Assembly: GCA_963782545.1 (NCBI GenBank)
Contig: CAWAKD010000001.1
Location: forward strand, 8,118-72,117
Direction of reading: 5' to 3'
Source: an uncultured delta proteobacterium
GTDB taxonomy: Bacteria; Myxococcota_A; Polyangia; Fen-1088
DNA length: 64,000 bases
This document shows, one piece after another, positions 7,708-17,707 of the stretch. Position 1 is the stretch's first letter. Each line of letters opens with the position of its first letter. The position numbers and the translations under genes are program-made. The notes under the pieces were generated by a model, which ran no database searches, had not been told where the DNA came from, and was given only the letters and a program-made list of their open reading frames with translations.

Positions 7708-8018
7708 GAGCAAGAGCGTAGAAGCTCGACCCGAGCGATTCAAGCGCGAGTTTTCGAAACGCGGCTCGGATGCTCGGCCTCGGGGTCTCGGCGTGCTTCT
7801 GCTCAAGCGCGCGTCCAGCGATCCCAAGGACAAGCTGCGGCTGCCGGTCCTGGAGGCCGTGTTGCAGCGTCGAGATCCCTTCTTCCGGCGAGTCCTGACC
7901 AACCGCCGACGCACCCGGGAAGGCCGGATGCATCGTCGTCCGGCGGGCCATCTGCTTCGCCACTCCAGGCGAAGCACTTGGTCTCTTCCTTCAGCAACGT
8001 CGAAGACAGGTTATGGGG

Positions 8019-8903
8019 TCAGCAAGACGTTCCGCCGGTGGGACAGCAGAACATCGTGATCCCTTCCGCCGCCGTGCCTGAGACGGAGCAGAAGCCGGCA
8101 GTGCCTGGGTCAGCGCCCGGCACGCATTCCGTCGTCAGCGGCCCAGTGCCACAGGTATGCGAGACACAGACCGGATCCTTGGGGTAGGTTGCCAGGCAGA
8201 TTTGGCCAGCAGGGCAGGTAACCTGCGCCCCGTTCACGGCCCTGCAGGTGAAGGTCGTGCACGCCCCGGTGGTCACCTGCCAGCTCGTGCCTGAACAACT
8301 CGCTACCGTGCGTCCGCCGGCCGCACAGTCCTCGTAGGCGCACCAGGCGGGCTGGTTGCAGACGGCGCCATTCACCGGTGCCGCTTCCGGACAGCTGCTT
8401 CCGCTGGAGCCACCCGAGCCGATGGTTCCGCCACTGCCGCCGGCAACCCCACCGGTCATGCTGACGCCGCCTGTGCCGCCAATCGATGCGTCTTTGCCCC
8501 CGCCAGTGCCACCGAGACCGGCATCGTGGTTTCCGCCGGTTGCGGTTTCGGGGGCTCCGCCATCGCTGATGCCGCCTCCGCCGCCCGAACCGAGCCCACC
8601 TGTCCCATTGCCTCCGGTCGGGGTTCCGCCCGCGCCGGCTGCGGCGATTCCGCCGGAGCCAGTCGATGCATCGATGCCTCCTCTGGCGTCCGCCCCGCCC
8701 GTACCAATTCCGCCCGTGCCCGAAACGCCGCCACCGGAGCCCCCCACCCCACCCGATCCCGAAATGGCCATGTCCGAAGCTGTTGCATCGCCAGGTGCAG
8801 CGTCGATCGTCGCGCCTTTGCCCCCGGAGTTACCGCACCCGTCAGTCGCAAGCAGGGCGCAACTACTCACTATCGTCAATGCCAGTGCCTTCAATCTACT
8901 CAT
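8019..8903 (-). CDS. Lipoprotein with Gly-rich linker and Cys-rich C-terminal domain
   Basis: MSRLKALALTIVSSCALLATDGCG signal, about 170 aa of (G/S/T/A)-rich low complexity, then a 14-Cys domain (...CPEAAPVNGAVCNQPAWCAYEDC...FCCPTGGTSC). Confidence 0.6.
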   Translation of the reverse strand: MSRLKALALTIVSSCALLATDGCGNSGGKGATIDAAPGDATASDMAISGSGGVGGSGGGVSGTGGIGTGGADARGGIDASTGSGGIAAAGAGGTPTGGNGTGGLGSGGGGGISDGGAPETATGGNHDAGLGGTGGGKDASIGGTGGVSMTGGVAGGSGGTIGSGGSSGSSCPEAAPVNGAVCNQPAWCAYEDCAAGGRTVASCSGTSWQVTTGACTTFTCRAVNGAQVTCPAGQICLATYPKDPVCVSHTCGTGPLTTECVPGADPGTAGFCSVSGTAAEGITMFCCPTGGTSC

Positions 8904-11024: not shown

Positions 11025-12314
11025 ATGGCAGTCAATACGAAGAAGGTTCTCAGCGTCATCTTGGGCGGCGGCGCGGGCACCCGATTGTTTCCGCTCACCA
11101 AAGATCGGGCCAAGCCCGCGGTGCCGCTGGCCGGCAAGTACCGCCTGGTCGACATCCCCATTTCCAACTGTATCAACTCCGACCTCCGCAACATCTACGT
11201 GCTCACGCAGTTCCAGTCCGCCTCCATGCACCGGCACATCTCGGGGTCCTACAAATTCGATCCATTCACGGGCGGCTTCGTCGAGATTCTGGCGGCGCAA
11301 CAGACCTATTCCGATGCCTCGTGGTGGCAGGGCACGGCGGACGCGGTTCGCAAGAATATGATGCACTTCCTGACCCACGACCCGGAGTACTTCCTGATCC
11401 TCAGCGGCGACCAGCTGTACCGCATGGACTTCCGCGACATCCTGCAACAGCACCGGGACACCGGCGCCGAGATCACCATCGCCACCATCCCGGTCATCCG
11501 GCGCGACGTCAGCTCTCTCGGTATCATGCAAATGGACGTGAATCGCCGAATCCATCGCTTCGTCGAGAAGCCCAAGGAGGAGGCGCTGATGGACACTCTG
11601 CGTTTGCCGCGTGACTGGTATGGGCAGCTGGGCCTCGTCAGCGACGACGATCTATTCCTTGCCTCCATGGGCATCTACGTTTTCAACCGCGATGTGCTCT
11701 TGCAGGTGCTGGACAACGACCAACCGGATTTCGGCAAGAACATCATTCCTAGCGCCATCGCCTCGCGGTCCGTATTCTCGTACGTGTTCCAGGGCTATTG
11801 GGAGGACATCGGAACCATTCGCGCTTTCTTCGAGGCCCACCTGGACCTGGCCGCCGAACAACCTCGCTTCAGCTTCTTCGACATGTCGGCGCCCATCTTC
11901 ACCCGCCCGCGCTGGTTGCCCGGCTCGAAGATCAACGGCGGCACCCTGGACCACGCCATGTTGTGCGACGGTTGCATCGTCAACGGCGCGCACATCGAAA
12001 ATTCCGTGATCGGTATTCGCAGCATCATCGGCATCGGCGCCAAGATCGCACGCACCGTGATCATGGGGTGCGACTACTACGAGTCGATGGAATCCATCCA
12101 ATCCCACGAAGCGCAGGGCCTGCCTCGCATAGGCATCGGCAAGAACGCGCGCATCGAAAATGCCATCATCGACAAGAACGCTCGCATCGGCGACGAGGTC
12201 GTGATTTCGCCCGCAGGCAAGGCCACAAATGTGGATCACCCGCTGTACTACATCCGCGACGGCATCGTGGTCATTCCCAAGAACGCCACCATCCCGTCCG
12301 GAACCGTCATCTAG
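11025..12314 (+). CDS. glgC: Glucose-1-phosphate adenylyltransferase
   Basis: MAVNTKKVLSVILGGGAGTRLFPLTKDRAKPAVPLAGKYRLVDIPISNCINS... is the canonical GlgC N-terminus, and the left-handed beta-helix C-terminus is full length. A GGAAAGGAAG purine tract precedes ATG 11025. Confidence 0.95.
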   Translation: MAVNTKKVLSVILGGGAGTRLFPLTKDRAKPAVPLAGKYRLVDIPISNCINSDLRNIYVLTQFQSASMHRHISGSYKFDPFTGGFVEILAAQQTYSDASWWQGTADAVRKNMMHFLTHDPEYFLILSGDQLYRMDFRDILQQHRDTGAEITIATIPVIRRDVSSLGIMQMDVNRRIHRFVEKPKEEALMDTLRLPRDWYGQLGLVSDDDLFLASMGIYVFNRDVLLQVLDNDQPDFGKNIIPSAIASRSVFSYVFQGYWEDIGTIRAFFEAHLDLAAEQPRFSFFDMSAPIFTRPRWLPGSKINGGTLDHAMLCDGCIVNGAHIENSVIGIRSIIGIGAKIARTVIMGCDYYESMESIQSHEAQGLPRIGIGKNARIENAIIDKNARIGDEVVISPAGKATNVDHPLYYIRDGIVVIPKNATIPSGTVI

Positions 12315-12356
12315 CAGACCTGGAACGTCCCACCCAATACTAGCTTGAGGCCATTC
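12188..12356. repeat. Direct repeat copy A (169 bp): glgC 3' end plus downstream 42 bp; partner at 17539-17707
   Basis: Gap-free alignment to 17539-17707 at a constant offset of 5351 nt. I count 9 mismatches: 12192, 12209, 12215, 12240, 12260, 12296, 12322, 12340, 12341. Confidence 0.9.
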
Positions 12357-12423
12357 TGGTGGATGCGGGCGCTGGCGCGACTTTCCTCATGTCGCTGGCG
12401 TTACCGCCTTTCGGAAACGCTGC

Positions 12424-13942
12424 ATGTCCAAAGATCCTGACAAGAAGACTGAATCCGTCTCCAACGAAGAGCAGCTGCGAAAGCGCCTCAAGACGCTTTC
12501 GCGGCAAAGAACCTGGATGTTCGTCGGCGGCCTGCTCGCCGCGGCTTCGAGCGCAGGTCGCTTCATGGGATGGGTGTCTCCCGATTGGCATGTTCTGCCG
12601 AATTGGTTCGGGCTGATGGCAGCGGTGCTCGGCATTGTGGGAGCCCTGTACCTATCGCCCAAAATCGAGGAGTTGATACGCCAGCTTCCGCCACCCGCCG
12701 TTGTGGGGCGCGCCGCCGAGCGGCGGCGCGGGCCCTCCGACGCTCGCTTCGGCCGGCTCCGCGCCAGGGCCCGCAGGCTGCTGCCGACCTGGCGGGCCCG
12801 CATTCTTGCCGGGGCCCTGCTGGTCGGCGTTACCCTCGCCGTTTACCTCGCTGTGTCGTCACACTTGATCTTCCAGAGCCGTCTCACCACGTGCGAGGAT
12901 CGGTACAGGGAAAAGGGAACGCGGCTCTCGCCCGCCGCGCACAATCGATGCGCCCACGAGGTGGCAAAGCTCTGGTCGATGCCAGAATACTGCGACGCCT
13001 TCCAGTCCACAAAGAGCGGCGCCACGCGCGCAGATTTGCGAGCCCGCTGCCGGAGCGACGTGGCCGAGCAACTGGGCAACCTGGAGCTCTGCAAGAAGAG
13101 TGGCGATGCGTCTGAGACCGAGCGTTGCCTCCGCACGCTCGCCCTGCGGGCCGAGGATGCATCGCTTTGTGCACGGATCCCGGACGAAGAGAGCGCCGAG
13201 CTGTGTTTGGCCGAGCTCGCCGTCGGGGCGATGCGGAGCGACCTGTGTCTGCGGGTCGAAGACGAGAGCAGGCGAGGTCGTTGCATCAAGGAGATCGTCG
13301 GAAACGGGGGCGACCTAGCCCAGTGTGCGTCCATACGTGAGCCGCAGGAGCGCGATGCGTGCTATCTCGGCGCCGGCGCGGCCAATCCTGGCGCATGCCG
13401 GAAGATCTCCCCGGACCGGCGCGCGGAGTGTCTCAAACGGTATCCCGTGGCGCTCGACGACCTCGACGCCGCATGCGAGGGGCAGGCCCAGTGTCTCGCT
13501 GCGCTCGGCAGCGCCACCGCGAGTACTGCGCCGTGTGAGCTCATCTCGGATGCCGAGGCCTCGCTCCGGGTGCAGTGCTTCGAGGCGGCATTCGAGCTAC
13601 GCCCGTGGACCCGGGACTCCGAGTGTGCACGACTACGCCTGCCAAAGCTTCGCGACGACTGCTTCTCCGGCCTGGGACGCCAGGTCGGGCACGCGGGAGC
13701 ATGTCTTCGAGGTGCTCGACCCGGTGATGCGCAAGGAGTGCGTGCGCGCCGCCGGAAAGAGCGACGCCAGCCGCTGCCTGGCCCTCGGCGACGCGGCGGA
13801 CGCGACCAGCTGTGTCTCGGAGTCGGATCTGGCGAAAACGATCGACCCCAGCGTTTGCAGGCTTCTGCCAAAGCCCAGGCGGAAGGCATGCGCGCAACAG
13901 GTGGCCAGCAACCTCGAGGAGGAGGTGGGCAATGCCCGCTGA
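12424..13942 (+). pseudogene. Membrane-anchored Cys-repeat protein (unnamed repeat family); frame broken near 13700
   Basis: Three TM helices followed by many C-x(9-13)-C units. ORF 12424..13980 loses the repeat pattern after ...GRQVGHAGAC. ORF 13325..13942 in the next frame restores it (FEVLDPVMRKECVRAAGKSDASRCLALGD...). This may be a sequencing indel. Confidence 0.5.
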
Positions 13943-14975
13943 TGCCGGGAAGCGGAGGGGCCACCGCGGCCCCTCCTTGACGATCGCCCTCGTGGTCATG
14001 GCCACCGCGTGCTCGGGCAGGATGTCCCGCAAGGAGGCGCTCGGTCTGTTCTTCGAATGCAAGGCGGCCGGCGAGTCGCGGCGGGGCGAGTGTTTTGTGA
14101 GGCGAGGTAGCGTGGCTGCTTGCCGGCGCGCCGCGACCGTCATGTCGAGCCCCGAGTGTTTCAGTGCGGTTGCGGCGGAGGAGAAGAAGGCGGAGATCTG
14201 TGCCGAGATTGCGAGCTTCCAGGATCGGGTCGATTGCGTGAAGGGCGTTGCGGAGAAGTCGGCGGATGCGACGGTTTGCGCTCACATCGAAGCGCCCCGG
14301 TACCGAGACGAATGCGTGGACATGGTCGCCGGGCAACGGGCCACGGACGTATCGGTTTGCGACCTCATCGGGAATGCCTTCCGTCGGGACACCTGTCGCG
14401 AGAAGCACAACGACTACTTCCGCGGCGCGGCCTGTCCTCACATCGAGGACACCAACCGGCGGGACGCCTGCTACCTTGCCGTGGTCAAATCCTACAAGGG
14501 CTCGGTCGACCTATGCGACAAGATCGTCGGGCGTAAGGCAGAATGCCTGCTGGACTTTGCGCTGGAACACCCCGAGGTGTGCGAGCGGCTTGGCTCTGGT
14601 CCAGGCTCGATTCCCAGGGCCGTCTGCTACGAGGCCGCGTTTGGCGTTTCATCGGGTCGCACGTCGTGTGCCGGCATCGCGGAGCGGGCGCAAATCCTGG
14701 AATGTGAGGCACGGCTTGCCGTTCGAGCGAACGACAGCGCGACCTGCACCGCCATGCTGACCAGCGACGATGCGGACGACTGTTGGAATGCAATCGCCCG
14801 CGCAGACGGTGCTGCCTGCCTCAAGATCCGGCAGCCTGATTTCCAGCGCCAGTGCTTGCGAAGATACTGGAGCCAGGCGCACGACGCGCGAATCTGCTCG
14901 TCCCTGGCGCCGGCCTCGCTGGCAAAGGCCTGTACCATGCACTTTCGTCGCAAGGCCGGCAGACCGGGGCGGTAG
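13932..14975 (+). CDS. Secreted Cys-repeat protein, paralog of 12424..13942
   Basis: GGAGGTGGGCA precedes ATG 13932, and the gene overlaps the upstream stop by 11 nt. Signal ...SLTIALVVMATACSG. It has the same repeat unit (..RDECVDMV.., ..RDTCREKH.., ..RDACYLAV.., ..QRQCLRRY..). Confidence 0.6.
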   Translation: MPADAGKRRGHRGPSLTIALVVMATACSGRMSRKEALGLFFECKAAGESRRGECFVRRGSVAACRRAATVMSSPECFSAVAAEEKKAEICAEIASFQDRVDCVKGVAEKSADATVCAHIEAPRYRDECVDMVAGQRATDVSVCDLIGNAFRRDTCREKHNDYFRGAACPHIEDTNRRDACYLAVVKSYKGSVDLCDKIVGRKAECLLDFALEHPEVCERLGSGPGSIPRAVCYEAAFGVSSGRTSCAGIAERAQILECEARLAVRANDSATCTAMLTSDDADDCWNAIARADGAACLKIRQPDFQRQCLRRYWSQAHDARICSSLAPASLAKACTMHFRRKAGRPGR

Positions 14976-15108
14976 GTGGCCGTCTCGTCGGATTGTCTCC
15001 AATGAGATCACCCAGTCGTCGTCCAAGCAGCACGCCAGAAGGCCAAGTCGTCCATCCTACTTGCCTGCTTGAGGGCGATCTTATAGCTTGGCAGGTGGCA
15101 GGGGATGT

Positions 15109-15615
15109 ATGCCTAGGAAACCGTCGATCAACGGGATGGTTCTCGTGCTCGCGTTTGTGGCCAGCGCGTGCGGGCCGGGCGGCAACAACTGTACGTGCGG
15201 CGTGCCGGACGGGAGCACGGGCGGAGGTGTCGACTTCGCGGGATCGTATGCCGGTGTGCTTAGGCAATCGGATGAGTCATGCCAATATATGTTGGGGTCT
15301 CTCGGGTACGACTCCAACGCCGTGATGACGTTGAGCATGCCGAACTCGACGGAAGTCGATATCGTCAGCATTACCTGGTGTCCCGTTCACGGCTCGCCCT
15401 CGTACAACAAGGTCAATATTCAACCGGTCGTCTGCCCGACGATCACGGACGCAAGCGGTACGAGCGTCATCGAGTTTACGGGGGGAGATCTGACCTTGGA
15501 CGATGCCACGACGCTGCAGGTTCATCTTTATAGGAAGGCGCAATACTATCCGGTGGCCGGGACGCCCCTAACTGATTGCACGTCCGGCCTTTCCGGAACC
15601 CTCAAGAAACAGTGA
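15109..15615 (+). CDS. Hypothetical lipoprotein
   Basis: MPRKPSINGMVLVLAFVASACGPGG signal with Cys. High GC3. No recognisable family. Confidence 0.55.
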   Translation: MPRKPSINGMVLVLAFVASACGPGGNNCTCGVPDGSTGGGVDFAGSYAGVLRQSDESCQYMLGSLGYDSNAVMTLSMPNSTEVDIVSITWCPVHGSPSYNKVNIQPVVCPTITDASGTSVIEFTGGDLTLDDATTLQVHLYRKAQYYPVAGTPLTDCTSGLSGTLKKQ

Positions 15616-15795
15616 GCCGCGCGATTCGTGGCCATAGGCTCCACAAGCGCCACTTTTCCTTCATCGAATCGCATCCACGACATGTCCGATGTCAGAGCCG
15701 TCGTGTACTCCTTGCCACTCAGAAAAGCCATGGCGGCGTTGATCTGCAAAGGCGACGTGGACGCTGTGTTGACGCCACCAGGAGGTATCGCCTGA

Positions 15796-16203
15796 ATGAG
15801 AGTCCTGATTGCAGCGCTCCTGGCTGTTTTGGTGTGGCCCGCGTTGGCAATCGCCTGTCGATGTAATGAGCCTACGATGAGCCAGGCCTACGCGCGTGCC
15901 GATGCGGTGGCCATGGTTAGCATTGAGGCGATTTCGCAGCTACCAGGCGATATCACTTGCGCAAAGGGCGTGGTGACCCAATCGTGGAAGTCTACTCTGC
16001 CAGAGTCGCTTACCATCTTCACCGGCGAGGATTGCAGCTATAGGCTCAACAAGGGCGGCACCTACTTGCTGTACCTCAAGCGCAACAAAGATGGGGAGTT
16101 TGGAACCTACCGATGCCGGGGCAACAAGAGCGAAGCGGAGTCCGCGGCGCCAGTTCGATGGCTCAATCGCCATGGGAAGCGTACGAACCACCGAACGAAG
16201 TAG
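15796..16203 (+). CDS. Small secreted protein with TIMP/NTR-like features (mature N-terminus C-x-C)
   Basis: AGGAGG lies 8 nt upstream of ATG. Signal MRVLIAALLAVLVWPALAIA is followed directly by CRCNEPTMSQAYARADAVAMVSIEAI, and later by ...EDCSYRLNKGGTYLLYLKRNKDGEFGTYRCRG. The gene call is solid; the TIMP-like assignment is by pattern only. Confidence 0.6.
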   Translation: MRVLIAALLAVLVWPALAIACRCNEPTMSQAYARADAVAMVSIEAISQLPGDITCAKGVVTQSWKSTLPESLTIFTGEDCSYRLNKGGTYLLYLKRNKDGEFGTYRCRGNKSEAESAAPVRWLNRHGKRTNHRTK

Positions 16204-16540
16204 GTTGGAAATCAGGCTCTCGCCGCTTGCGGGCGAGCGGGGCCGCGCGCGGCAATGGCCATGGCGTCTTGCTTTTCTGGATCCTTCGCCAGACCGACGA
16301 CGGCGTCCGACAGGCCCTCGGCGCAGGCCGCGGCTTGGTGGCGCGCTGCTGTCCTCACCCGGACACCGAAGGCGACGCCGAAGGCAATATGCCTTACACA
16401 CACGTTCCACCCCAATTGCCCCTGCCGGTTTCCCGTGGTCTGGTGAACGAACCGTCCATTCACGACAGCCAACCCGCCCGCCAGACCCGCCTCGGCAGCA
16501 TGCGTGACGGCTCAAATCGATTACGGACGGCCGAAGGTCG

Positions 16541-16960
16541 CTAGCCGGTCTCGCCAATCCGCTGGCGGATGGCCGCCACGAATGCCTCGAAATCTGGAAG
16601 GTGGTGGTCGAGCACGTCGAGCACGACGCTGACATCGACTTCGGCGTAGCCGTGGACGAGCACGTTTCGGAAGCCGCCCATGTCGCGCAGAACACCTACC
16701 AGGGGAGGCGCAAGCCATCCGTGCCGGCCCAGCAAGTCGAACAGCTCACGATTCGTGCGAGGCTCGCCCAGCCGGTTGTCCGACACGATGTGGGAAGCGA
16801 CGTCCAGCGCTGCCTGGATGGCGATCTGCAGGGTGTGCTCCACGAAGCGGAGCTCGCGCACGTCCGCGGACAGACGATCGGGCCGTGCCTGCTGCCGCAG
16901 GTCGCGCAGGCAGGTTTCGATGAATGCCACCTTCTTGGCGATGAGGTCCTGATCCGTCAC
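16541..16960 (-). CDS. hepT: HepT (DUF86) toxin of a type VII toxin-antitoxin pair
   Basis: R-x4-H-x-Y motif in GGFRNVLVHGYAEVD. GTG 16960 overlaps the stop of the upstream mntA by 4 nt (GTGA). Confidence 0.85.
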   Translation of the reverse strand: MTDQDLIAKKVAFIETCLRDLRQQARPDRLSADVRELRFVEHTLQIAIQAALDVASHIVSDNRLGEPRTNRELFDLLGRHGWLAPPLVGVLRDMGGFRNVLVHGYAEVDVSVVLDVLDHHLPDFEAFVAAIRQRIGETG

Positions 16961-17394
16961 GCGGCACGCTCCCCTGGTGGTCTTCGATAGCGCCGCAGCA
17001 TCGGCAGGACGTCGAAGTACTCGTTGCGCGCCTTCACCTCGAAGCGGATGCGCGCGGACCGATTGTTCTCGATGACCAGCAAGCCATCGCGCAGAACGCG
17101 ATGGACCAGATCCGGCGGCTGATGGTCGAGCACCACCAGATCGACCCGACGGCCGAGGCGTTCTTCGAGGTCGCCGGCCAGGGCGAGCTTGAGCCCTGCC
17201 AGACCTGGGTCCACCGGCTTGCCACAAAGGACCGCCACATCCACATCGCTGTCCGCACTGGCTTCGCCGCGCGCCATACTGCCGAACAGGTAGACGGCGG
17301 CTGCGTCCTCGTTCCTCGCCGCGAACACGTGCGCGATTTCCCCTGCTAGTCGGTCTCGATCCACGCAGATAGTGTACCCCACATCGTCCGTCAC
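16957..17394 (-). CDS. mntA: MntA-type nucleotidyltransferase antitoxin
   Basis: YLFGSMARGEASADSDVDVAVL matches G-S-x9-11-D-x-D of minimal nucleotidyltransferases. It lies immediately upstream of and overlaps hepT. Confidence 0.85.
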   Translation of the reverse strand: MTDDVGYTICVDRDRLAGEIAHVFAARNEDAAAVYLFGSMARGEASADSDVDVAVLCGKPVDPGLAGLKLALAGDLEERLGRRVDLVVLDHQPPDLVHRVLRDGLLVIENNRSARIRFEVKARNEYFDVLPMLRRYRRPPGERAA

Positions 17395-17441
17395 GGTTGT
17401 GTTTGCCGATCCCCGACCGGTAGATCAGTGTGAGCCGCAAT

Positions 17442-17456
17442 GTCCGGAATCCGGAC
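17442..17456. promoter_or_regulatory. Perfect 7-1-7 palindrome GTCCGGA-A-TCCGGAC upstream of mntA-hepT (candidate operator)
   Basis: Read directly from the sequence, 48-62 nt upstream of the mntA start codon. Toxin-antitoxin operons are commonly autoregulated through palindromes. Function is not demonstrated. Confidence 0.3.
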
Positions 17457-17475
17457 GCGGCTCCTTCTGCCTACC

Positions 17476-17508
17476 AACTCCAGGCGTACCCAAACTCCAG
17501 GCGTACCC
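17476..17508. repeat. Tandem 17-bp direct repeat (AACTCCAGGCGTACCC x2)
   Basis: AACTCCAGGCGTACCCA followed by AACTCCAGGCGTACCC, read directly. It sits 30 nt inside the right junction of the 12188-17707 segment. Confidence 0.6.
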
Positions 17509-17538
17509 GAGGCAGAGCCGACTGAACACGAATGATAG

Positions 17539-17707
17539 AGGCAACGAGGTCGTGATTTCTCCCGCTGGCAAGGCCACAAATGTGGATCACGCGCTGTACT
17601 ACATCCGCGATGGCATCGTGGTCATTCCCAAGAACGCCACCATCCCTTCCGGAACCGTCATCTAGCAGACCTAGAACGTCCCACCCAATAACAGCTTGAG
17701 GCCATTC
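17539..17707. repeat. Direct repeat copy B (169 bp); partner at 12188-12356
   Basis: See copy A. It contains an orphan glgC tail and the stop codon of the convergent gene 17671..18360. Confidence 0.9.
17543..17665 (+). pseudogene. Orphan 3' fragment of glgC (last ~40 codons)
   Basis: Translates to NEVVISPAGKATNVDHALYYIRDGIVVIPKNATIPSGTVI*, against glgC DEVVISPAGKATNVDHPLYYIRDGIVVIPKNATIPSGTVI*. No upstream glgC body is present. Confidence 0.85.

What the first reader, a model, noticed from the sequence alone, without database searches (positions are those of the whole stretch)
15796..16203. Bacterial TIMP/NTR-like protein: signal peptide cleaved to expose an N-terminal Cys-x-Cys
The predicted signal ends ALAIA and the mature protein starts CRCNEPTMSQAYARADAVAMVSIEAI. 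From memory, vertebrate TIMP N-domains start C-x-C-x-P-x-H-P-Q-x-A-F-C-x-x-D-x-V-I-R-A, where the free N-terminal Cys chelates the catalytic zinc of metzincins. The later segment IFTGEDCSYRLNKGGTYLLYLKRNKDGEFGTYRCRG parallels the TIMP block ..(V)C(G)Y........E(F/Y)LI(A)G....DG.L.I..C.F. The Cys count (1, 3, ~35, ~60, ~87 of the mature chain) is compatible with C1-C60 and C3-C87 type disulfides. A secreted metalloprotease inhibitor carried on a mobile-looking segment of a predatory-type bacterium would be unusual.
Basis: partly seen in the sequence, partly recalled or inferred. Interest (0 to 1): 0.6.

Follow-up and report, generated by a model that had tools for sequence, protein, structure and literature searches.

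The report
Orphan bacterial TIMP-like protease inhibitor
A soil myxobacterium carries, on a small inserted DNA island, an exported protein with the fold and exposed Cys-x-Cys tip of animal TIMP protease inhibitors; in related bacteria the same gene sits directly behind a tiny zinc protease that it is predicted to plug, so this lone copy is probably a stand-alone antidote.

Summary
ORF 15796-16203 (+) encodes 135 aa. It has a Sec signal ending A-I-A and a mature chain starting Cys-Arg-Cys.

It belongs to an unnamed bacterial family of about 390 clusters. Four Cys are invariant, and an A-x-A|C-R-C junction is almost universal.

Pfam's TIMP model does not hit this protein. The family profile's best solved relatives are TIMP-1, -2 and -3, aligned from Cys1. 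The AlphaFold model (pLDDT 93.7) superposes on N-TIMP-1 and N-TIMP-3 at Z 13.4, with residue 21 on TIMP residue 1.

The new point is context. In seven independent related loci the gene lies directly downstream of a 160-aa HExxH protein with no signal peptide. That protein has a zincin fold, closest to M35 aspzincins. A cognate pair from a relative is predicted to bind (ipSAE 0.92, best control 0.20). The Cys-Arg-Cys tip sits on the HExxH site.

The window and its genome lack this peptidase. The window copy is therefore an orphan inhibitor on a 5.35-kb integrase-less island. It is most likely kept as protection, or else is a relic.

This scan has flagged bacterial TIMP-like proteins before on other DNA. 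It had not seen this peptidase partner.

Nothing here is biochemically tested.

The parts
15780..15785 (+). AGGAGG ribosome-binding site, 10 nt upstream of the ATG
   Evidence: Read directly from the sequence.
15796..15855 (+). Sec-type signal peptide, residues 1-20, ending A-I-A
   Evidence: It has a basic n-region and a hydrophobic core. In 135 relatives, -3 is A or V in 119 and -1 is A or G in 128, and only 3 have a lipobox. Cleavage is inferred, not measured.
15856..15864 (+). Codons for Cys21-Arg22-Cys23, the predicted mature N-terminus (Cys1-Arg2-Cys3)
   Evidence: Both Cys are invariant and Arg is present in 122 of 135 members. Residue 21 superposes on TIMP Cys1. In a relative's cognate pair the equivalent residues contact the HExxH site.
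15856..16200 (+). Mature TIMP/NTR-fold domain, residues 21-135. The stop codon is at 16201-16203.
   Evidence: AlphaFold2 gives pLDDT 93.7. Foldseek and VIA-align both place it with N-TIMP and NTR domains.
15958..15960 (+). Cys55 codon (TGC), a non-conserved extra cysteine
   Evidence: Relatives have Arg here. The paralogous fragment on contig C7 has CGC.
16033..16035 (+). Cys80 codon, the predicted disulfide partner of Cys21
   Evidence: It is invariant. It aligns with Cys68 of N-TIMP-3.
16114..16116 (+). Cys107 codon, the predicted disulfide partner of Cys23
   Evidence: It is invariant. It aligns with Cys95 of N-TIMP-3.
12189..17707 (.). 5.35-kb inserted segment that carries the gene. It is bounded by 168-nt direct repeats (12189-12356 and 17540-17707) that duplicate the 3' end of glgC.
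   Evidence: The repeats are 95% identical. G+C is 0.57-0.60 at 15000-16200, against 0.65-0.70 in much of the flanking sequence. No integrase was found among the ORFs scanned.
16541..17394 (-). MNT-type nucleotidyltransferase plus HepT toxin-antitoxin pair at the right end of the segment. This is context, not part of the inhibitor.
   Evidence: Pfam Polbeta/NTP_transf_2 and HepT-like hits.

Best explanation
The gene encodes an exported single-domain protein of about 115 residues with the N-TIMP (NTR, OB-type) fold.

Signal peptidase I is inferred to cut after A-I-A and free Cys1-Arg2-Cys3. Two disulfides, Cys1-Cys60 and Cys3-Cys87 in mature numbering, are inferred to tie this tip to the barrel, as in TIMPs.

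The family's job is to bind and block a cognate 160-aa zincin metallopeptidase. That peptidase carries HExxH plus a downstream Glu and is closest in fold to M35 aspzincins. In relatives it is encoded immediately upstream. This step is inferred from gene linkage and a predicted complex.

The tip is inserted into the active-site cleft in the TIMP manner. Residue 2 (Arg or Lys) points towards the S1' side.

The peptidase has no signal peptide and the inhibitor is exported. The pair therefore has the layout of a one-step-secreted or injected peptidase with a periplasmic protector. Known examples of this layout are alkaline protease with AprI, and type VI effector-immunity pairs.

In this window the peptidase gene is missing. 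The gene is an orphan inhibitor brought in on a small island. It is most likely retained as protection against the peptidase made by neighbouring bacteria.
For: Fold and register:
- pLDDT is 93.7.
- Every Foldseek match at E <= 0.02 is a TIMP, NTR, NtA or C345C domain.
- Z is 13.4 with residue 21 on TIMP residue 1.
- The profile-to-PDB alignment matches all four invariant Cys to TIMP disulfide Cys.

Exposed Cys1:
- The A-x-A|C-R-C junction is conserved in 135 members.

Linkage:
- The HExxH gene lies directly upstream, with a 4-nt overlap or gaps of about 13 to 35 nt where gene ends could be set, in L004 (the same contig as L030), L016, L017, L018, L026 and L027.
- Four more close homologues share contig lengths with partner proteins.
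- Among 61 relatives the partner occurs in exactly the three genomes that have a strong CRC-type hit besides the window's own genome. The two genes are adjacent each time.

Partner is a zincin:
- H115 and E116 are invariant. H119 and E132 are near-invariant.
- pLDDT is 90.3.
- The top VIA-align rows are zincin-fold HExxH proteins, almost all metallopeptidases. AsaP1 scores Z 8.9, deuterolysin 8.2 and GfMEP 7.6.

Predicted complex of the cognate L016 pair:
- ipSAE is 0.92, 0.91 and 0.92 in three runs. The best control scores 0.20.
- This mark was reached by 58 of 80 solved complexes and 2 of 110 mismatched pairs.
- The runs share at least 98% of contacts, and the partner's pLDDT is at least 95.
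- The interface is inhibitor residues 47-50 (C1-R2-C3-I4), 99-106 and 126-133 against peptidase residues 83-91, H115, E116, H119 and A131-E132.
- Seven of the 15 most conserved positions on each side lie in that interface.

Orphan retention:
- L003 also keeps the inhibitor without the peptidase, at the same nuoI-nuoJ site where L004 has both.
- Purifying selection is shown by 10 synonymous against 2 non-synonymous differences to the fragment copy.
Against: - No biochemical data exist for any member.
- The window's own genome has no partner gene (completeness 90%). The complex was modelled on a relative's pair that is only about 37% identical to the window protein.
- TIMP-protease complexes are solved, so the binding mode could be partly recalled by the model (caveat stated).
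- Mean conservation of interface residues is not significantly above that of the rest of each protein.
- Tandem two- and three-domain relatives have internal C-x-C starts with no free alpha-amino group. A free N-terminal Cys is therefore not needed by every member.
- One divergent partner homologue (G740) is followed by an unrelated exported protein.
- How the signal-less peptidase leaves the cell is unknown. Type VI genes are present in all carriers, but also in 32 of 61 relatives, so this does not discriminate.
- The extra Cys55 could disturb disulfide formation in this copy.
Confidence: 0.6

Rival explanations
1. It is a broad inhibitor of secreted metalloproteases of the cell itself or of its prey and competitors (MMP, thermolysin or serralysin types). 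It would not be dedicated to the mini-zincin.
For: The fold and the exposed Cys1 are those of TIMPs, which inhibit many metzincins. The gene stands alone here, with no cognate peptidase in the genome. Myxobacteria secrete many proteases (my own knowledge).
Against: Close relatives are tightly linked to one particular zincin family. Residue 2 is Arg in 122 of 135 members, against Thr or Ser in TIMPs, which suggests a different S1' pocket (TIMP residues from my own knowledge). No conserved MMP-like neighbour was seen in any locus.
Confidence: 0.15
2. It is a relic: cargo on a decaying, integrase-less island with no present function. It would have been left behind after loss of the peptidase gene.
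For: A second copy in the genome is already truncated and carries a 97-nt deletion. Cys55 is a derived change at a conserved Arg. None of the 12 same-genus genomes searched has a strong hit.
Against: The frame is intact, with a good ribosome-binding site and every family-invariant residue. Differences to the fragment copy are 10 synonymous against 2 non-synonymous. Orphan retention recurs in L003.
Confidence: 0.15
3. It is a non-inhibitory NTR-type binding module. It would bind a ligand, a cell-envelope component or a metal through its Cys-rich tip, as many eukaryotic NTR domains do without inhibiting proteases.
For: NTR domains of PCOLCE, agrin NtA and complement score nearly as well as TIMPs. 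Multi-domain relatives have internal C-x-C starts.
Against: The precisely conserved signal-peptidase junction that leaves Cys as residue 1 is a TIMP hallmark, not a general NTR one. The gene is linked to an HExxH gene and the predicted interface centres on the HExxH site. The four invariant Cys align with disulfide-bonded Cys, not free thiols.
Confidence: 0.1

Closest known systems
Animal TIMPs, N-terminal inhibitory domain (TIMP-1 to -4; Pfam PF00965; MEROPS I35 from my own knowledge)
   Same: Same fold over the whole mature domain: Z 13.4, rmsd about 2.1 A over 108 residues. A signal peptide is cut to leave Cys1-x-Cys3. The Cys1 and Cys3 disulfide partners fall at equivalent positions. The predicted docking puts the tip and the loop before the second Cys pair on a zinc site.
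   Different: Sequence identity is only 15-18%, and there is no PF00965 hit for this protein. The Cys13-type third disulfide and the C-terminal domain are absent. Residue 2 is Arg, not Thr or Ser. The host is bacterial. The likely target is an M35-like mini-zincin rather than a metzincin.
NTR modules (PCOLCE1, netrins, complement C345C, agrin NtA; PF01759, PF03146)
   Same: Same superfold: PCOLCE1 NTR gives Foldseek E 6e-5 and Z 12.0, and NtA gives Z 11.
   Different: Those modules are internal domains of large eukaryotic proteins and mostly do not inhibit proteases. Here the domain is free-standing and its Cys1 is at the mature N-terminus.
Listeria monocytogenes Mtz-Tim pair (PMC8235301)
   Same: A bacterial metalloprotease gene is followed by a gene for a TIMP-like exported protein, on mobile (phage-derived) DNA.
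   Different: Tim is a lipoprotein with an LTAC lipobox. It is cleaved by its metzincin about 50 residues in, and it acts on the cell wall. Mtz is a secreted metzincin. Here the inhibitor has an SPase I site that exposes Cys1, and the peptidase is a signal-less 160-aa zincin from another family.
Serralysin inhibitors AprI, Inh and SmaPI (MEROPS I38, from my own knowledge; mentioned in PMC8235301)
   Same: Same logic. The peptidase lacks a Sec signal, the periplasmic inhibitor is encoded beside it, and the inhibitor's N-terminal segment enters the active site.
   Different: The fold is unrelated (an eight-stranded barrel, no Cys-x-Cys). The peptidase is a large RTX metzincin exported by a linked type I system. 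No transporter is linked here.
Periplasm-acting type VI or Rhs effector-immunity pairs. This includes the scan's earlier Rhs-HExxH toxin with a TIMP-family immunity candidate (e1-4303819, unchecked).
   Same: The gene order is effector then exported immunity, tightly coupled. Distribution is patchy and mobile. Orphan and duplicated immunity genes occur (L003, L027, L029, this window). One pair lies beside an Rhs gene.
   Different: No link to type VI genes or to a delivery domain was found. The peptidase is free-standing. Toxicity is untested.
M35 aspzincins (AsaP1, deuterolysin, GfMEP) and minigluzincins (selecase, abylysin), for the partner protein only
   Same: These are the best structural matches: Z 8.9, 8.2 and 7.6, with Foldseek top hits. 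Both have HExxH with an acidic third ligand about 10-13 residues later. M35 enzymes prefer Lys at P1' (my own knowledge), which fits Arg or Lys at inhibitor residue 2.
   Different: There is no significant sequence match to any Pfam family. The candidate third ligand is Glu rather than Asp in a GTxDxxYG motif. There is no propeptide and no signal peptide.

Membership tests
TIMP (Pfam PF00965 / MEROPS I35) | Match to the PF00965 profile above its gathering score | tested here: not met
   No PF00965 hit at E <= 10 for the window protein. Of 135 relatives, 33 hit weakly, best E 1.4e-4.
TIMP (Pfam PF00965 / MEROPS I35) | N-TIMP OB-type barrel with flanking helices over the whole domain | tested here: met
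   Z is 13.4 and rmsd 2.1-2.2 A over 107-108 residues to N-TIMP-1 and N-TIMP-3. Foldseek probability is 1.00 with TM up to 0.72. This is a predicted model, not a solved structure.
TIMP (Pfam PF00965 / MEROPS I35) | Signal peptide cleaved so that Cys is residue 1 of the mature chain, followed by x-Cys | tested here: met
   The A-x-A|C-R-C junction is present: -3 is A or V in 119 of 135, -1 is A or G in 128 of 135, and Cys1 and Cys3 are in all 135. This is a sequence rule only. No SignalP run or N-terminal sequencing was done.
TIMP (Pfam PF00965 / MEROPS I35) | Cys1-Cys70-type and Cys3-Cys99-type disulfides | tested here: met
   The four invariant Cys align with Cys1, Cys3, Cys68 and Cys95 of N-TIMP-3. 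The bonds themselves were not measured.
TIMP (Pfam PF00965 / MEROPS I35) | Third N-domain disulfide (Cys13-Cys124 type) and a C-terminal domain | tested here: not met
   There is no Cys at the position aligned with TIMP Cys13. The protein ends after the N-domain.
TIMP (Pfam PF00965 / MEROPS I35) | 1:1 inhibition of a zinc endopeptidase, with the Cys1 amino and carbonyl groups on the catalytic zinc | not testable with these tools
   The only evidence is a predicted complex of a relative's cognate pair, with the tip on H115, E116 and H119.
NTR module (PF01759) | Profile match and NTR fold | tested here: inconclusive
   The fold matches PCOLCE1 NTR at Z 12.0. The profile matches only 1 of 135 relatives, at E 0.017.
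Bacterial lipoprotein | Lipobox [LVI][ASTVI][GAS]C before the Cys | tested here: not met
   Only 3 of 135 members fit. Position -2 is usually L, F or W and -3 is usually A. The window protein has A-I-A-C.
Effector-immunity pair acting in the periplasm (type VI-like logic) | A signal-less enzyme gene directly followed by a gene for an exported small protein, with patchy mobile distribution and orphan or duplicated immunity genes | tested here: met
   Searches show this for relatives. In the window only the exported half is present.
Effector-immunity pair acting in the periplasm (type VI-like logic) | Genetic or physical link to a secretion apparatus or delivery domain, and toxicity of the enzyme | tested here: inconclusive
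   TssC and Hcp are present in all 5 carrier genomes, but TssC is also in 32 of 61 relatives. No adjacent apparatus genes were seen. Toxicity was not tested.
M35 aspzincin (partner protein only) | HExxH plus the GTxDxxYG Asp ligand, and a Pfam M35 match | tested here: not met
   There is no Pfam match. The motif is HExxHxxGAxG...AE, with Glu132 in place of the Asp. The fold is similar at Z 8.9.

The most novel reading that the evidence does not exclude
The Cys-Arg-Cys TIMP-like proteins and the 160-aa zincins form a new, widespread class of bacterial antagonism module. A small M35-like peptidase would be delivered into rival cells' periplasm, and a TIMP-mechanism immunity protein would neutralise it. 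The TIMP mode of zinc-site blockade would then be a bacterial invention that predates, and possibly seeded, the animal TIMP/NTR superfamily. This window would hold an orphan immunity gene acquired for defence.
Probability: 0.25. Interest if true: 0.85.

Novelty: new variant of a known kind. Interest (0 to 1): 0.62.

Why it matters
The papers found in the held library treat TIMPs as an animal family (PMC4860685, PMC10755359, as read). The only bacterial TIMP-like protein found there, Listeria Tim, is a cleaved lipoprotein with a different logic (PMC8235301).

The family described here keeps the defining TIMP features: the fold, the exposed Cys1-x-Cys3 tip and the two tip disulfides. It also comes with a defined, very small cognate zinc peptidase.

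The pair totals about 275 residues, both proteins are predicted with high confidence, and all the assays needed are standard. That makes it a directly testable minimal model of TIMP-type inhibition.

It also provides a handle on the origin of the NTR superfamily. And it offers a candidate new peptidase-inhibitor (or effector-immunity) module for soil bacteria.

For this window specifically, the result explains one cargo gene of a small island as an orphan protective gene.

Tried and rejected
**Family and profile searches**
- Direct Pfam and NCBIfam scans of the window protein gave only sub-threshold noise: DUF6488 at E 0.036, ApcE and HemD.
- The ESM Atlas returned only unnamed bacterial clusters. 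One cluster has PF00965 on 19% of its members.
- The search for related loci with the wide alignment failed for lack of a conserved word. With the narrow alignment it gave only 2 genome loci and 5 metagenome loci.

A full neighbourhood census of the roughly 390 clusters could not be made.

**Searches for the partner peptidase**
- A search for the partner family in 401 genomes sampled across the phylum found nothing. Few candidates per genome were scored, so this shows only rarity.
- In 301 genomes of the class of G453 it was found in two.
- tblastn of both proteins against 72,556 plasmids found no match.
- Searches of the window's own genome for Aspzincin_M35 and eCIS_core found nothing. The controls did not ring either, so this is uninformative.

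**Secretion route**
- Type VI co-occurrence is not discriminating. TssC is in 32 of 61 relatives.

**Expression and regulation**
- No RNA holder was listed among the sequencing runs. Only four soil DNA runs from one study hold part of the stretch.
- The sigma-70 promoter scan found none. Myxobacterial promoters may not fit that consensus.

**Readings rejected**
- The lipoprotein reading was rejected on lipobox statistics.
- The long minus-strand ORF 15940-16695 that overlaps the gene was rejected as a high-G+C artefact. The plus-strand frame has homologues and a synonymous-biased substitution pattern.

**Test that did not reach significance**
- Interface residues are not more conserved on average than the rest of each protein: p = 0.15 for the peptidase and p = 0.36 for the inhibitor.
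Full report
**1. The observation**

AGGAGG lies at 15780-15785, 10 nt before the ATG.

The first 20 residues form a typical Sec signal: a basic start, a hydrophobic core, and the end ...P-A-L-A-I-A. Residue 21 onward is C-R-C-N-E-P-T. The cysteines are residues 21, 23, 55, 80 and 107, which are mature positions 1, 3, 35, 60 and 87.

The local G+C is 0.57-0.58, against 0.65-0.70 in much of the flanking sequence.

**2. It is a real, conserved gene family**

A word-seeded search found 12 homologues at 44-62% identity. All are unnamed and none has a Pfam domain. An exhaustive HMMER scan of 1.84 billion representatives found 387 clusters at E <= 1e-3 and 132 at E <= 1e-10.

In 135 single-domain members, C21, C23, C80 and C107 are invariant. 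A20, R22, Y32, A35, W64, K65, T104, G109 and L123 are near-invariant. Cys55 is not conserved: relatives have Arg there.

The junction before the first Cys follows the signal peptidase I rule throughout:

| Position | Residue | Members (of 135) |
|---|---|---|
| -3 | A or V | 119 |
| -2 | L, F or W | 66 (the three commonest residues) |
| -1 | A or G | 128 |
| +1 | Cys | 135 |
| +2 | Arg | 122 |
| +3 | Cys | 135 |
| lipobox fit | | 3 |

So the family is selected to expose Cys-Arg-Cys as its mature N-terminus. The lipoprotein reading is rejected. I had no SignalP, so the site is an inference from this rule.

**3. Is it TIMP/NTR-like?**

The Pfam TIMP model does not hit the window protein at E <= 10. 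Among the 135 relatives, 33 hit PF00965 weakly (best E 1.4e-4). Another 39 hit PF25518 NRG2_N, and one each hit NTR and agrin NtA.

A profile of the family searched against all PDB sequences puts TIMP-1, N-TIMP-3, TIMP-2 and the PCOLCE NTR domain at the top. The E-values are marginal (0.06-0.5). Every alignment starts at the family's first Cys and at TIMP residue 1. The N-TIMP-3 alignment runs to residue 95 and matches C80 to Cys68 and C107 to Cys95.

The AlphaFold2 model built on the 135-sequence alignment has mean pLDDT 93.7 and pTM 0.83. Foldseek against the PDB gives 19 hits at E <= 1e-3. All are TIMPs or the PCOLCE1 NTR domain. Below them come agrin NtA, meteorin NTR and complement C345C, and no unrelated fold appears before E 0.02.

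VIA-align gives Z 13.4 and rmsd 2.1-2.2 A over 107-108 residues to N-TIMP-1 (3ma2_C) and N-TIMP-3 (3cki_B). The model range 21-129 falls on chain range 1-118.

The fold, the register of Cys1 and the positions of the two tip disulfides are therefore those of the N-TIMP domain. The third TIMP disulfide and the C-terminal domain are absent.

**4. Surroundings in the window**

The gene lies in a 5.35-kb segment bounded by 168-nt direct repeats (12189-12356 and 17540-17707, 95% identical). The repeats duplicate the 3' end of glgC.

The other cargo is:
- two Cys-repeat ORFs,
- a 175-aa ORF (15088-15615) of unknown family directly upstream of the gene,
- an MNT/HepT toxin-antitoxin pair.

No integrase was seen. 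The 175-aa upstream neighbour has no counterpart next to TIMP-like genes elsewhere.

The genome's contig C7 holds a degraded second copy. It is 5'-truncated and carries a 97-nt internal deletion. It differs from the window gene at 12 of 163 aligned bases, 10 of them synonymous. That ratio argues for past purifying selection. It also shows that Cys55 (TGC against CGC) is a derived change.

Distribution is patchy. None of 12 same-genus genomes has a strong hit. Three other genera of the same family do. One relative's contig is labelled Polyangia bacterium, so the host is a myxobacterium of that class.

**5. The conserved partner**

An all-against-all comparison of ORFs around relatives showed one conserved neighbour. 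It is a protein of about 160 aa encoded directly upstream on the same strand. The spacing is a 4-nt overlap in L017, 13 nt in L004, and at most about 35 nt in L016 depending on the start codon chosen. It is present in L004 (the same contig as L030), L016, L017, L018, L026 and L027.

L027 and L029 carry two tandem TIMP-like genes. In L003 the inhibitor stands alone between nuoI and nuoJ, at the site where L004 has both genes.

In the fixed sample of 61 relatives, the partner occurs strongly in G019, G020 and G029 only. These are exactly the three genomes, besides the window's own, with a strong Cys-Arg-Cys-type hit. The genes are adjacent each time.

The window's own genome has no partner at E <= 1 (completeness 90%).

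The partner family has at least 109 clusters. All are annotated as hypothetical and none has a Pfam domain. They come from Polyangia, Burkholderiales, Bryobacteraceae and Planctomycetes. Its features are:
- no signal peptide;
- a conserved start, M-P-x-I-N-T-P-x-S-G-H;
- invariant H115 and E116;
- near-invariant H119, E132, C52 and C138, in a motif H-E-x-x-H-V-x-G-A-x-G...A-E.

Its model (pLDDT 90.3) matches only zinc peptidases weakly by Foldseek: GfMEP, selecase, AsaP1 and abylysin. In the Foldseek-independent search the 50 rows listed are zincin-fold HExxH proteins, almost all of them metallopeptidases. They are led by the M35 aspzincins AsaP1 (Z 8.9), deuterolysin (8.2) and GfMEP (7.6).

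I read it as a minimal zincin metallopeptidase with Glu132 as the likely third ligand. This is inference.

**6. Predicted complex**

I modelled the cognate L016 pair: peptidase residues 1-150, inhibitor residues 47-158 (the mature chain), and zinc.

| Run | ipSAE |
|---|---|
| Complex, run 1 | 0.92 |
| Complex, run 2 | 0.91 |
| Complex, run 3 | 0.92 |
| Control 1 | 0.00 |
| Control 2 | 0.01 |
| Control 3 | 0.20 |

This mark was reached by 58 of 80 solved complexes and 2 of 110 mismatched pairs. The runs share at least 98% of their contacts. The partner's pLDDT is at least 95.

The interface on the inhibitor side is residues 47-50 (Cys1, Arg2, Cys3, Ile4), 99-106 (the loop ending in the Cys1 partner) and 126-133 (around the Cys3 partner). 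On the peptidase side it is the edge strand 83-91 plus H115, E116, H119 and A131-E132. Arg2 touches Y87, A88, A89, T112, H115 and E116.

This is the TIMP wedge geometry. M35 enzymes cleave before Lys (my own knowledge), which fits a conserved Arg or Lys at inhibitor residue 2.

Three caveats apply:
- The model supports binding but does not show it.
- TIMP-protease complexes are solved, so the mode may be partly remembered.
- The pair is a relative's, not the window's.

Seven of the 15 most conserved positions on each side lie in the interface. Mean conservation of the interface is not significantly raised.

**7. How it most likely works**

Shown:
- an exported TIMP-fold protein with a conserved Cys-Arg-Cys junction;
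- tight linkage to a zincin gene in relatives;
- absence of that gene from this assembly.

Inferred:
- cleavage at Ala20|Cys21;
- two disulfides;
- blockade of the zincin's active site by the N-terminal tip.

The peptidase has no export signal while the inhibitor is exported. This is the layout of a peptidase that bypasses the periplasm, or is injected into other cells, paired with a periplasmic protector. Known examples are alkaline protease with AprI and type VI effector-immunity pairs.

Several observations fit an antagonism module:
- orphan inhibitor copies (the window, L003);
- duplicated inhibitor copies (L027, L029);
- scattered insertion sites, including between nuoI and nuoJ and beside an Rhs toxin gene in L016;
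- a divergent partner in G740 followed by an unrelated exported protein.

The delivery route is unknown. Type VI genes are in all five carrier genomes, but TssC is also in 32 of 61 relatives.

**8. Comparison with what is known, and novelty**

The papers I found treat TIMPs as an animal family. The one bacterial TIMP-like protein in the held library is Listeria Tim, a lipoprotein cleaved by its metzincin.

This scan has flagged bacterial TIMP-like proteins on other DNA several times. One of those notes is an Rhs HExxH toxin with a TIMP-family immunity candidate. Those notes are unchecked by me. The partner family described here was not in the scan's index.

I file the protein as a structural and probably evolutionary relative of the TIMP/NTR superfamily that works like a TIMP. 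I do not file it as a member of PF00965, whose profile test it fails.

I rate it a new variant of a known kind. For this window the gene itself is an orphan copy.

Noticed in passing
window 12189-12356 and 17540-17707: 168-nt direct repeats (95% identical) duplicate the 3' end of glgC and bracket a 5.35-kb low-G+C segment. The segment has no integrase.
   Followed up: partly
L025 about 8005-8213 (own genome, contig C7, minus strand): A degraded second copy of the TIMP-like gene. It is 5'-truncated before residue 38 and has a 97-nt internal deletion. It is 92.6% identical, with 10 synonymous and 2 non-synonymous differences, and has Arg where the window has Cys55.
   Followed up: yes
L003 3218-4865; L004 4948-7058; L027 1628-4217: In three betaproteobacterial contigs the module is inserted inside the complex I operon, between nuoI and nuoJ. 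The module is the peptidase plus one or two inhibitors, or the inhibitor alone. It is presumably co-transcribed with the nuo genes.
   Followed up: partly
proteins P0029, P0033, P0034, P0042, P0079, P0124, P0143, P0146: Relatives with two or three tandem TIMP-like domains. The later domains start with an internal C-G-C, C-A-C or C-P-C. The first domain often has a single Cys. A free N-terminal Cys is therefore not universal.
   Followed up: no
L019 8014-8664; L020 7661-8803; L021 7839-8642; L022 7973-8581; L024 355-957: A more distant TIMP-like group in the same class. These proteins start C-S-C after the signal. They carry a Pro-rich linker and a C-terminal Gly-Cys, hydrophobic and Arg-rich tail that looks like a MYXO-CTERM sorting signal. 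No HExxH partner is adjacent.
   Followed up: no
L037 5742-6810 (genome G740): A divergent homologue of the mini-zincin is followed, with overlap, by an unrelated exported protein of about 150 aa instead of a TIMP-like one.
   Followed up: partly
L016 8668-13550 (minus strand): A 1456-aa Rhs-repeat protein and a small downstream ORF lie convergent to the peptidase-inhibitor pair in a Polyangia relative. This suggests a toxin-immunity neighbourhood.
   Followed up: no
window 12424-14975: Two overlapping ORFs (518 and 387 aa) are built of Cys-spaced repeats with no Pfam family. The overlap suggests a frame break, as earlier notes of this scan also say.
   Followed up: no
window 16541-17394 (minus strand): An MNT-type nucleotidyltransferase and a HepT-like RNase form a toxin-antitoxin pair at the right edge of the island.
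   Followed up: partly
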